The position numbers were made by a program, and so were the translations under genes. This document shows positions 1-4,218 of a stretch of 4,218 nt of DNA, piece after piece. The stretch comes from a virus (lineage: Duplodnaviria; Heunggongvirae; Uroviricota; Caudoviricetes). The notes below the pieces were generated by a model. The model was given only the letters and a program-made list of their open reading frames with translations, was not told the origin of the DNA and searched no databases. Numbering within the stretch: the first letter of the stretch is position 1; every line of letters begins with the position of its first letter. Where the stretch lies: IMG/VR virus record IMGVR_UViG_2711768017_000017. One strand, 5' to 3'.

Positions 1-220
1 GGTTATCGCTCGCCACGGGAATATCTGCGGCAGCGGGCTTGTAATGGGTTAAGTGATAACAGATGTCTGGAAATATAGGGGCAAATCCAATCGTCGCCGT
101 ATTCCCGTATTAACAGAGACCGTAGCCCGACGGGGAACTCCTTCTGCGCGAGTGTGCGGGAATAATCAAAAACGATGCACACCGGGGTTACCGGGTACAC
201 ATATTTCATCATGCCAGCGA

Positions 221-249
221 GTCCGGTTCTGGCACGGAAGAAACCGGAC
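221..249 (-). other. Stem-loop (8-bp stem GTCCGGTT / AACCGGAC, 13-nt loop) lying 9 nt downstream of the stop of the minus-strand 141-aa ORF; possible transcript 3' end structure, but no U-tract follows on the minus strand
   Basis: Direct reading: 221-228 gtccggtt and 242-249 aaccggac are perfect reverse complements. On the + strand a weakly T-rich run (gttatgattt) follows; on the minus strand none does. The strand assignment is therefore uncertain. Confidence 0.3.
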
Positions 250-257
250 GTTATGAT

Positions 258-683
258 TTAGTGCGGAAATATTTGTGTAGTGTTCTGTATGTTCTCAGTA
301 AAGAGTAATGAATTATCAAAGGTATAGTAATACCTTTTGTTTTCGTGGATATTTGTAATCCATCTGAAAACCCCTGCTGTAGCAAGATTTTTCCTGTATT
401 CGTAAAATGATAACTCTCCTGATTTGAATCCTTTTAAGGTGGCTTCTATAAGGCATTTATTTTTTGAAAATCTTACATTTACAACCTTACCCTGTCCTTT
501 TATTAAAACCGTATTATCGTTTTCAAGAACAAGATGAATATTCTCTGTGGCTAAATAGTAAATGTAATGTGAGACATTGTGACGTTTTAGTTCAGAATAA
601 AACCAGTGATAGTTTAAATTATTTCGCACTTTATCGAATATTTGTTTAAAAATGGCAACCTGAGCCATTGTAGTACCTTCCAT
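258..683 (-). CDS. Hypothetical protein, 141 aa from the first ATG (likely 136 aa from the ATG at 666-668); strongly AT-rich moron-like gene of unknown function
   Basis: Uninterrupted 141-codon ORF in DNA of roughly 27-30% GC, where stop codons are frequent by chance, so an ORF this long is unlikely to be accidental. The second ATG (666-668) is preceded by GGAAGG with a 7-nt spacer; the first ATG (681-683) has no Shine-Dalgarno-like sequence. No transmembrane-length hydrophobic stretch and no motif I recognise. Composition contrasts sharply with the roughly 55% GC packaging genes. Confidence 0.65.
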
Positions 684-725
684 GTGATATGAGGGGGCGT
701 AGTCTGCACGATTATCTAAATTGCT

Positions 726-959
726 TCAATCTGGTCTAACCTGTTTTCTGAGCAATTCAGTAATGTCACTCTTTTCTTTGTTTGCTTCAGGCGAAACTCT
801 TTTTTCTGAGCACAGTCTCCGGCGGCAGGCTTCAATGACCCAGGCTGAGAAATTCCCGGACCCTTTTTGAACAAGAGCGATGTTAATTTGTTCAATCATT
901 TGGTTAGGAAAGCGGATGTTGCGGGTTGTTGTTCTGCGGGTTCTGTTCTTCGTTGACAT
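726..959 (-). CDS. ylcI: Small basic DNA-binding-like protein, 77 aa, with ribbon-helix-helix (Arc/CopG-like) features; resembles YlcI/DUF3950 proteins found next to cos in lambdoid prophages (recalled from memory, not verified)
   Basis: ORF with ATG at 957-959 preceded by AGGG about 7 nt upstream. Arg/Thr-rich basic N-terminus (RTRRTTTR), then a predicted beta-strand (NIRFP) followed by two helices (NQMIEQINIALVQKG and NFSAWVIEACRRRL), as in RHH folds. The position immediately upstream of cos/Nu1 on the opposite strand matches where ylcI sits next to nohD in E. coli DLP12, as I remember it. Confidence 0.7.
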   Translation of the reverse strand: MSTKNRTRRTTTRNIRFPNQMIEQINIALVQKGSGNFSAWVIEACRRRLCSEKRVSPEANKEKSDITELLRKQVRPD

Positions 960-1147: not shown

Positions 1148-1180
1148 GACAGGTTACGGGGCGGAAGGCGCGCGGGTTTT
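1148..1180. promoter_or_regulatory. cosN: cosN, the terminase nicking site; predicted 12-nt cohesive-end segment at 1159-1170 (GGGCGGAAGGCG), flanked by lambda-like AGGTTACG and CGCGGGTTTTCGC
   Basis: Flanks match the lambda right-end/left-end junction as I recall it (..GATCCGACAGGTTACG | 12 nt | CGCGGGTTTTCGCTATTTATGA..). The location is 189 bp upstream of the Nu1 ATG, consistent with lambda (Nu1 begins at nucleotide 191 of the genome). Confidence 0.75.
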
Positions 1181-1347: not shown

Positions 1348-1867
1348 ATGGAAGTCAACAAAAAGCAGCTGGCTGACATTTTCGGTGCGAGTATCCGTAC
1401 CATTCAGAACTGGCAGGAACAGGGAATGCCCGTTCTGCGAGGCGGTGGCAAGGGTAATGAGGTGCTTTATGACTCTGCCGCCGTTATAAGATGGTATGCC
1501 GAAAGGGATGCTGAAATTGAGAACGAAAAGCTGCGCCGGGAAGTTGAAGAACTGCGGCAGGCCAGCGAGACAGATCTCCAGCCAGGGACTATTGAGTACG
1601 AACGCCATCGACTTACGCGTGCGCAGGCCGACGCACAGGAGCTGAAAAATGCCAGAGACTCCGCTGAAGTGGTGGAAACCGCATTCTGTACTTTCGTGCT
1701 GTCGCGGATCGCAGGTGAAATTGCCAGTATTCTCGACGGGATCCCCCTGTCGGTGCAGCGGCGTTTTCCGGAACTGGAAAACCGACATGTTGATTTCCTG
1801 AAACGGGATATCATCAAAGCCATGAACAAAGCAGCCGCGCTGGATGAACTGATACCGGGGTTGCTGA

Positions 1868-1893
<26 letters not shown>
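1348..1893 (+). CDS. nu1: Terminase small subunit gpNu1 (181 aa), lambda-type
   Basis: The translation MEVNKKQLADIFGASIRTIQNWQEQGMPVLRGGG... matches lambda gpNu1 along its length as I recall it, including the N-terminal winged helix-turn-helix that binds the cosB R elements. Lies immediately downstream of cosB; stop TAA at 1891-1893. Confidence 0.97.

Positions 1894-4218
<2,325 letters not shown>

What the first reader, a model, noticed from the sequence alone, without database searches (positions are those of the whole stretch)
258..683. AT-rich moron gene of unknown function inserted just upstream of cos
A 136-141 codon ORF at about 27-30% GC sits inside an otherwise lambda-like packaging region of about 50-55% GC. 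The abrupt compositional switch, the intact ORF and the plausible ribosome-binding site suggest a horizontally acquired cargo gene. The region between the lysis genes and cos is a place where lambdoid prophages commonly carry morons (bor sits there in lambda). The protein shows no motif I can place, appears soluble, and could encode an exclusion, defence or host-modulating function. This is the best candidate in the window for something undescribed, but its function cannot be read from the sequence.
Basis: partly seen in the sequence, partly recalled or inferred. Interest (0 to 1): 0.75.

Follow-up and report, generated by a model that had tools for sequence, protein, structure and literature searches.

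The report
Lambda's own YbcV/YdfO-family accessory gene
The AT-rich ORF is a real gene, but it is the well-catalogued DUF1398 (YbcV/YdfO/lambdap78) accessory gene that phage lambda itself and half of all E. coli genomes carry next to cos; it already has a solved structure and is dispensable for phage growth, and its function is still unknown.

Summary
An intact minus-strand ORF (258-683) of 31-32% GC lies beside 53-56% GC packaging genes. The conserved coding sequence is 258-668 (136 aa).

The claim that it is undescribed does not hold.
- The protein is a full-length Pfam DUF1398 member and is identical to RefSeq WP_000079508.1.
- Its DNA occurs in 2717 of 5426 complete E. coli genomes.
- It is locked to YlcI/YnfO-cos-nu1 in 51 of 51 viral contigs. 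The truly variable cargo slot is the next one to the left, between Rz and this gene.

The accessory reading is supported.
- It lies opposite the late operon, behind a conserved upstream block holding promoter-like hexamers and a PdhR box.
- It is under purifying selection (dN/dS 0.1-0.35).
- It is absent from one otherwise similar lambda-type phage.
- It is nonessential in lambda (CRISPRi EOP 1.9).

The fold is an orphan, and no catalytic, membrane, defence or virion signature was found. The most likely role is a prophage-expressed, non-enzymatic cytoplasmic binding protein. That role is inferred, not shown. Verdict: already known, low interest.

The parts
258..668 (-). DUF1398 (YbcV/YdfO/lambdap78-family) coding sequence, 136 aa including the conserved start ATG 668-666; stop codon 260-258
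   Evidence: Pfam PF07166 full length, E 3e-43. PDB 2HH8 YdfO, E 1.4e-69. RefSeq annotates the same 136-aa CDS as WP_000079508.1. dN/dS 0.08-0.43 with no indels.
669..683 (-). Five in-frame codons upstream (MEGTT). These are most likely 5' leader, not coding. They contain the Shine-Dalgarno-like GGAAGG (681-676), 7 nt before ATG 668.
   Evidence: A 1-nt indel in lambda, DLP12 and O157 puts ATG 683 out of frame, while the sequence ATGGAAGGT itself is invariant.
711..738 (-). Sigma-70-like promoter candidate for the DUF1398 gene (TAGACC, 16-nt spacer, GATAAT), inside the 3' end of the ylcI-like gene
   Evidence: Consensus scan, 9 of 12 matches. The block from GGTyAGACCAGATTGAA to the ATG is conserved across lambda, DLP12, Qin-like, ETEC and O157 although the DNA further upstream differs. 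No transcription start was measured here.
729..745 (-). PdhR-box-like palindrome (AACAGGTTAGACCAGAT on the gene strand) overlapping the -35 hexamer
   Evidence: It corresponds to the gSELEX PdhR sites reported for Qin (AAcaGGTcagACCAgaT) and DLP12 (reverse complement AtcTGGTctgACCtcTT) in PMC7660256, as aligned. Binding to this allele is inferred.
726..959 (-). YlcI/YnfO-family (DUF3950) gene, 77 aa, pI 10.9; probable ribbon-helix-helix DNA-binding protein with a variable C-terminal tail
1159..1170 (+). cosN cohesive-end position, here the variant GGGCGGAAGGCG (context for the locus)
   Evidence: Alignment with DLP12, O157, Qin-like and ETEC prophages, which have GGGCGGCGACCT.
1348..1893 (+). 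nu1, terminase small subunit (context)
   Evidence: Pfam Phage_Nu1, E 2e-101.
1868..3904 (+). A, terminase large subunit, interrupted by a run of N at 3344-3477 (context)
   Evidence: ORF list and sequence; annotated as terminase large subunit in near-identical prophages.

Best explanation
The ORF is the lambda-type DUF1398 gene, orthologous to lambda lambdap78, DLP12 ybcV and Qin ydfO. It is a small (16 kDa), basic (pI 9.4), soluble cytoplasmic protein. Its fold is an orphan, internally duplicated (helix-helix-strand-strand-strand) x2.

Shown here or in the cited papers:
- family membership and structure;
- fixed position in the block DUF1398 / YlcI-YnfO / cos / nu1;
- purifying selection;
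- dispensability of the lambda homologue for plaque formation;
- absence from an otherwise similar phage.

Inferred: it is a moron-type accessory gene read from its own sigma-70-type promoter, antisense to the late operon. It would therefore be expressed from the prophage rather than as part of virion production. Its AT-rich DNA is probably held down by H-NS and is modulated by the host pyruvate sensor PdhR.

Also inferred, with the least support: the protein acts non-enzymatically, by binding a host macromolecule (protein or nucleic acid) through its conserved aromatic/Arg-bearing beta-sheet, and so changes host physiology to the benefit of the lysogen.

My confidence by layer: identity about 0.97; accessory, prophage-expressed gene about 0.75; non-enzymatic binder about 0.45.

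For: Conserved module: the same order is seen in lambda, DLP12, Qin-like, O157 and ETEC prophages. In 51 of 51 IMG/VR loci YlcI and nu1 sit at fixed distances.

Accessory status: opposite strand to nu1/A/W. Lambdap78 CRISPRi EOP 1.9, scored nonessential (PMC10695390). Lambda recombinants carrying ybcV::Kan are active phages (PMC3945230). PhiR11_1_star has bor-YlcI-cos-nu1 without this gene. Only 43 of 50,697 phage records encode it, against 166 that share the adjacent ylcI-cos-nu1 DNA.

Selected outside the lytic cycle: kept intact in the cryptic prophages DLP12 and Qin and as stand-alone chromosomal copies in Kluyvera, Klebsiella, Raoultella, Pseudocitrobacter and Salmonella. dN/dS 0.08-0.43.

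Own expression signals: a conserved ~95-nt upstream block with promoter-like hexamers and the PdhR box. ybcV mRNA falls 10-fold in a pdhR mutant (PMC7660256). ydfO is induced about 100-fold by an ionic liquid (PMC4077768). ybcV rises more than 1000-fold when T4 MotB is overexpressed, in a study whose title attributes the effect to altered H-NS-dependent repression (PMC7827196).

Non-enzymatic binder: the nearly invariant residues are L, Y, T, N, A, G, W, R and Y, with no Asp/Glu/His/Cys/Ser set. The sheet is the most conserved part and helices 3 and 4 the most variable. No hydrophobic segment (maximum KD19 0.39).
Against: No experiment assigns any activity to a DUF1398 protein. A 2025 survey could draw no inference for the paralogue ycgX (PMC12356324). 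The promoter is only a consensus match, and the scan of 1-1400 found 4 sites against 2.5 expected by chance. No intrinsic terminator follows the gene; the hairpin at 221-249 has no T-run and a z-score of -1.3. Expression in an intact lambda-type lysogen was not checked. Absence of catalytic-looking residues in a 15-sequence alignment is weak evidence. I could not inspect model coordinates, so the conserved aromatic/Arg surface is inferred from strand positions only. The strict linkage to cos-nu1 would also fit a packaging-related role.
Confidence: 0.6

Rival explanations
1. It is a prophage-encoded anti-phage factor (superinfection exclusion or defence) that protects the lysogen against other phages.
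For: It sits among lysogenic-conversion genes at the Rz-cos end of lambdoid prophages. It is retained in cryptic prophages and is very common in E. coli, 2717 of 5426 genomes. It is nonessential for the phage itself.
Against: There is no significant match to any of 5027 PADLOC defence models; the best is Csx23 at E 0.025. It is a single 16-kDa protein without nuclease, NTPase or membrane features. No paper found links ybcV, ydfO, ycgX or DUF1398 to phage resistance. The one phage-related mention is loss of ydfO in a single phage-resistant APEC mutant, which points the other way if it means anything.
Confidence: 0.15
2. It is the toxin, or effector, of a two-gene toxin-antitoxin-like cassette whose antitoxin and repressor is the upstream ribbon-helix-helix protein YlcI/YnfO.
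For: The gene order matches: a small basic DNA-binding-type protein, then a 42-nt gap, then the 136-aa protein on the same strand. The YlcI model's best structural matches are RHH antitoxins (RelB, ParD, DinJ, TacA, CopG family). YlcI has a variable C-terminal tail, as antitoxins do. The pair is co-located in 51 of 51 loci.
Confidence: 0.08
3. It is a lytic-cycle helper tied to the lambda-type cos/terminase module, for example one that modulates cos cleavage, packaging or late transcription across cos.
For: It shows invariant physical linkage to YlcI-cos-nu1. Among phages it is found only in lambda-like ones. PHROG labels the family 'head protein'.
Against: It is transcribed against the late operon. 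Lambdap78 knock-down gives EOP 1.9. Kan-disrupted recombinants are active. A lambda-type phage with the same cos/nu1 lacks it. Intact copies persist where no terminase exists. Linkage may simply reflect proximity to the recombination-prone cos end (PMC3945230).
Confidence: 0.07
4. It is a structural 'head' or 'envelope' protein, as database labels say.
For: Only the labels: PHROG 413 'head protein' and 'putative envelope protein' in lambda-derived records.
Against: There is no signal peptide or membrane segment. Its strand is opposite to the head genes. It is nonessential. Its fold is unrelated to any capsid or envelope protein in the PDB or BFVD. From general knowledge, the lambda virion protein set has long been catalogued and does not include it.
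Confidence: 0.01

Closest known systems
E. coli K-12 YdfO (Qin prophage), PDB 2HH8, the founding structure of the 'YdfO-like' fold; Pfam DUF1398
   Different: The alleles differ mainly in strand 3, the linker and helices 3 and 4 (residues about 58-100). This copy sits in what looks like a complete lambda-type packaging module rather than a decayed prophage.
Phage lambda lambdap78 and DLP12 YbcV
   Same: 76-77% identical protein, 136 aa, same strand and position between the lysis genes and cos, and the same conserved upstream block. Lambdap78 is nonessential.
   Different: In lambda and DLP12 a ~530-bp segment with ybcW/lambdap79 on the other strand separates the gene from ylcI, and bor lies just downstream. 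Here the gene directly follows a 77-aa YnfO-type YlcI, and bor is absent from the part of the window seen.
Lambda morons bor and lom (lysogenic-conversion genes with their own promoters)
   Same: Reverse or independent transcription relative to the late operon, atypical composition, dispensable for lytic growth, and present or absent among related phages.
   Different: Bor and Lom are outer-membrane proteins with known phenotypes. This protein is cytoplasmic, has no known phenotype, and its expression in a lysogen has not been shown here.
Type II toxin-antitoxin cassettes with RHH antitoxins (RelBE, ParDE, DinJ-YafQ)
   Same: A small upstream RHH-like gene with a variable tail is followed closely by a second small gene.
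   Different: The partners occur independently of each other. The DUF1398 fold matches no known toxin. No toxicity is reported.

Membership tests
Pfam DUF1398 / YdfO-like | Full-length match to the family HMM above the curated cutoff | tested here: met
   PF07166: 147 bits against a cutoff of 22, profile positions 1-119 of 119; PHROG 413 positions 1-141 of 141, E 1e-89.
Pfam DUF1398 / YdfO-like | Same three-dimensional fold as YdfO (2HH8) | tested here: met
Pfam DUF1398 / YdfO-like | Genomic setting of the phage-borne members (between lysis genes and lambda-type cos/nu1, minus strand, with YlcI/YnfO) | tested here: met
   (51 of 51 loci).
Moron (independently transcribed accessory gene in a prophage) | Base composition distinct from flanking phage genes | tested here: met
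   GC 0.31 against 0.52 (left flank) and 0.53-0.56 (nu1/A/W).
Moron (independently transcribed accessory gene in a prophage) | Own promoter and own terminator | tested here: inconclusive
   A promoter-like site at 738-711 lies within a conserved upstream block. No canonical terminator was found downstream. K-12 homologues are transcribed in cryptic prophages. The transcription start was not mapped.
Moron (independently transcribed accessory gene in a prophage) | Present in some and absent from other closely related phages | tested here: met
   PhiR11_1_star has bor-YlcI-cos-nu1 without it. Stx phages have YlcI only. 43 phage records encode it against 166 that share the neighbouring DNA.
Moron (independently transcribed accessory gene in a prophage) | Dispensable for lytic growth | not testable with these tools
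   From the literature on the lambda homologue: CRISPRi EOP 1.9 (PMC10695390); ybcV::Kan recombinant lambda phages are active (PMC3945230).
Type II toxin-antitoxin module | Obligate pairing of the two genes | tested here: not met
   Stand-alone DUF1398 genes; YlcI without DUF1398; genes separated by ybcW in lambda and DLP12.
Type II toxin-antitoxin module | Upstream partner is a DNA-binding antitoxin-type protein | tested here: inconclusive
Type II toxin-antitoxin module | Second gene product is growth-inhibitory and is neutralised by the first | not testable with these tools
   Needs expression experiments. The ASKA ybcV clone gave a glycogen phenotype in a colony screen.
Known anti-phage defence systems (PADLOC) | Significant match to a defence-protein model | tested here: not met
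   Best hit Csx23, E 0.025, 12.6 bits.
Virion head protein or envelope protein (database labels) | Signal peptide or membrane segment, or similarity to capsid or envelope folds; late-operon orientation | tested here: not met
   Maximum 19-residue hydropathy 0.39; no structural relatives in the PDB or BFVD other than YdfO; opposite strand to the head genes.

The most novel reading that the evidence does not exclude
DUF1398 proteins could be a still-uncharacterised class of prophage conversion factor: a small platform-like binding protein, with a conserved six-stranded sheet and variable helices, that is wired to the host pyruvate sensor PdhR and targets a specific host or rival-phage macromolecule. 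It might work as an exclusion or anti-defence factor, or as a modulator of a host regulator. That would explain why half of all E. coli genomes, and lambda itself, keep it under purifying selection.
Probability: 0.25. Interest if true: 0.5.

Novelty: already known. Interest (0 to 1): 0.15.

Why it matters
As a finding it matters little. The gene, its family, its structure and its dispensability are already on record, and the sequence here is identical to a RefSeq protein and to the gene in several isolated phages. What remains interesting is general rather than specific to this window. DUF1398 is one of the last genes of phage lambda without a function, it is carried by about half of E. coli genomes, and it has an orphan fold. 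A phenotype for it would close a small gap in the best-studied phage. The analysis also tidies the record in four ways:
- the 'head protein' and 'envelope protein' labels are unsupported;
- the true start gives a 136-aa protein;
- the variable moron slot is the interval between Rz and this gene, not the gene itself;
- a published claim of oxidative-stress protection by YdfO appears to be a confusion with YfdO.

Tried and rejected
- Remote homology. A single-sequence HMMER scan of 1.8 billion cluster representatives gave only 196 hits, many of them fragments, and the family members I could place are from Enterobacteriaceae. No link to a characterised family appeared.
- Internal repeat by sequence. 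Not significant: score 31 against a shuffle mean of 26 +/- 5. The duplication is visible only in the predicted secondary structure.
- Gene neighbourhood of distant homologues. No constant partner. The 42-aa ORF upstream of the P0216 copy is not YlcI-like.
- Rfam. Only two sub-threshold microRNA-family matches, at the cos-nu1 inverted repeat.
- Terminator downstream of the gene. The hairpin at 221-249 is not distinguishable from shuffles.
- Literature. No functional study exists. The 'YdfO increases oxidative-stress resistance' statement (PMC4077768) cites Wang 2010, whose text names YfdK/YfdO/YfdS and never ydfO.
I could not read the lambda ribosome-profiling paper or the Casjens-Hendrix review (not held). 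The cap on papers stopped me reading three ydfO mentions: PMC5821084, PMC8229198 and PMC1943423.
- First attempt at related loci. The diverse alignment failed for lack of a conserved stretch. It was redone with a subset.

Full report
**What is in the sequence**

The window holds a lambda-type packaging region: nu1 (1348-1893), A (1868-3904, interrupted by a run of N at 3344-3477), W (3901-4107) and the start of the next gene, all on the plus strand. To the left, on the minus strand, are two small genes. One is a 77-aa ORF (959-726). The other is the ORF of the finding (683-258, 141 codons from the first ATG).

GC is 0.317 over 258-683. It is 0.521 in the left flank, 0.44 in the 77-aa gene, 0.43 around cos and 0.53-0.56 in nu1/A/W. 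About 7-8% of codons in DNA of this composition would be stops, so a 141-codon open frame has a chance of about 1e-5.

**The true start**

An alignment of the upstream region in six lineages shows a 1-nt indel between the first ATG (683) and the second (668) in lambda, DLP12 and O157. Only the second ATG is therefore in frame everywhere. The invariant ATGGAAGGT then serves as a Shine-Dalgarno-like element 7 nt upstream of it. RefSeq annotates the 136-aa form, WP_000079508.1, in genomes whose DNA is 100% identical over 258-683.

**Identity**

- The protein matches Pfam DUF1398 over the whole model (E 3e-43) and PHROG 413 over all 141 positions (E 1e-89).
- It aligns end to end with E. coli K-12 YdfO, whose NMR structure is PDB 2HH8 (E 1.4e-69).
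- Identical proteins are encoded by the isolated phages PhiR49_1, Kati, Chlobot and ev099. Phage lambda itself encodes a 76% identical copy (J02459 complement about 47048-47452, RefSeq lambdap78).
- The gene's DNA is found in 2717 of 5426 complete E. coli genomes, with up to five copies per genome.
- 373 IMG/VR contigs encode a relative.

This is not an undescribed gene.

**Locus anatomy across relatives**

In lambda, DLP12 (ybcV), a Qin-like prophage (ydfO), an O157 prophage, an ETEC prophage and two prophages nearly identical to the window, the order is always the same. It runs lysis genes, variable segment, DUF1398 (minus strand), optionally ybcW (plus strand), YlcI/YnfO (minus strand), cos, nu1, A.

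Among 51 viral contigs with full flanks, all have YlcI at about 126 nt and nearly all have nu1 at about 680 nt from the gene. The 1.2 kb on the other side falls into at least 10 sequence types. That side holds nothing, KilA-N-type genes, a 174-aa ORF I did not identify, or Rha/Ant-like genes (I named these ORFs from their sequences and by comparison with the annotated prophages, and did not search them against Pfam), and bor in lambda and DLP12.

So the hot spot for cargo is the interval between Rz and this gene. The DUF1398 gene belongs to the conserved cos-proximal block. It is nevertheless accessory:
- PhiR11_1_star has bor-YlcI-cos-nu1 without it.
- Stx phages keep only the YlcI-type gene.
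- Only 43 of 50,697 phage records encode it, against 166 that share the adjacent ylcI-cos-nu1 DNA.

**Selection and distribution**

Six alleles all have 136 codons, GC 0.31-0.33 and pairwise dN/dS of 0.08-0.43. A scan of 1.8 billion cluster representatives gave 196 hits, many of them fragments. Full-length distant members (26-44% identity) come from Kluyvera, Klebsiella, Raoultella, Pseudocitrobacter and Salmonella. They stand alone in unrelated chromosomal contexts and usually have lower GC than their surroundings. The gene is thus kept where no phage morphogenesis exists.

**Regulation**

A block of about 95 nt upstream of the start is conserved in all lineages, although the DNA further upstream differs: it is the 3' end of ynfO here and the ybcV-ybcW intergenic region in lambda and DLP12. 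It contains a sigma-70-like promoter candidate (738-711). It also contains the palindrome AACAGGTTAGACCAGAT (745-729). This palindrome corresponds to the PdhR gSELEX sites reported for Qin and DLP12. The same paper shows a 10-fold drop of ybcV mRNA in a pdhR mutant (PMC7660256).

Other reports on the K-12 homologues:
- ydfO is induced about 100-fold by an ionic liquid (PMC4077768).
- ybcV is induced more than 1000-fold when T4 MotB is overexpressed, in a study of altered H-NS-dependent repression (PMC7827196).
- ybcV is up-regulated in sabinene-adapted cells.

These results show that homologues are transcribed in cryptic prophages that make no late transcripts. I did not map a transcription start, and I found no convincing terminator.

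**Function**

No paper found assigns a function. A 2025 survey could infer nothing for the paralogue ycgX. The lambda homologue is nonessential: CRISPRi EOP is 1.9 (PMC10695390), and lambda recombinants that picked up ybcV::Kan from DLP12 are active (PMC3945230).

The statement that YdfO raises oxidative-stress resistance (PMC4077768) cites Wang 2010. That paper names YfdK/YfdO/YfdS of CPS-53 and never mentions ydfO, so the statement looks like a name mix-up.

The protein has pI 9.4, 16% aromatic residues and no hydrophobic segment. It has no PADLOC match. Its nearly invariant residues (L, Y, T, N, A, G, W, R, Y) do not resemble a catalytic set. Within the phage clade the sheet is the most conserved part and helices 3 and 4 the most variable. 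The 'head protein' and 'envelope protein' labels have no support.

My best reading is a prophage-expressed accessory protein that works by binding rather than catalysis. This is inference.

**The upstream partner**

**Verdict**

The central claim of novelty fails, because this is the known DUF1398/YbcV/YdfO/lambdap78 gene. Interest is low for this window. The only open question is the general one of what DUF1398 proteins do.

Noticed in passing
window 1159-1170 (context 1151-1237): The cohesive-end sequence is GGGCGGAAGGCG instead of the canonical lambda GGGCGGCGACCT found in the DLP12, O157, Qin-like, ETEC and O9:H10 prophages. The same variant is in E. coli strain 582 (L002 7063-7087) and in 14 IMG/VR contigs. 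It makes 1151-1167 more complementary to 1221-1237 (17-nt arms, 82%)..
   Followed up: partly
window 726-959 (-): The YlcI/YnfO (DUF3950) gene looks like a ribbon-helix-helix DNA-binding protein with a variable C-terminal tail. It keeps the same place, reverse strand just before the packaging genes, even in Stx phages that have a different terminase and no DUF1398. Its function is unknown..
   Followed up: partly
window 729-745: A PdhR-box-like palindrome overlaps the predicted -35 of the DUF1398 gene. It coincides with the published PdhR gSELEX sites of DLP12 and Qin, so a host pyruvate sensor appears to be wired to this phage gene in all lineages..
   Followed up: partly
window 3344-3477: A run of 134 N lies inside the terminase large-subunit gene A. 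It is a masked stretch or assembly gap, and the reading frame continues across it..
   Followed up: no
window 1-257: The left flank (GC 0.52) has no annotated gene in related prophages. Most near-identical prophages match the window only from position 90, so a recombination junction lies near 89/90. A 69-aa minus-strand ORF (3-212) matches only the C-terminal 29 residues of PHROG 20197, so it is probably a gene remnant..
   Followed up: partly
literature (PMC4077768 versus PMC3105296): The claim that YdfO overexpression increases oxidative-stress resistance cites a paper that reports this for YfdK/YfdO/YfdS of prophage CPS-53 and does not mention ydfO. It is a likely gene-name confusion that has propagated..
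   Followed up: yes
database labels for the 258-668 product: PHROG 413 is labelled 'head protein', and lambda-derived records say 'putative envelope protein'. Neither label fits a soluble, nonessential protein encoded on the reverse strand..
   Followed up: yes
L023 (Salmonella enterica subsp. diarizonae) about 2265-5396: A stand-alone DUF1398 homologue (GC 0.33 in a 0.45 locus) lies next to an ORF whose N-terminus resembles the effector SopE2 (from memory) and an ORF resembling a lambda-type Ser/Thr phosphatase. This suggests an old prophage remnant..
   Followed up: no
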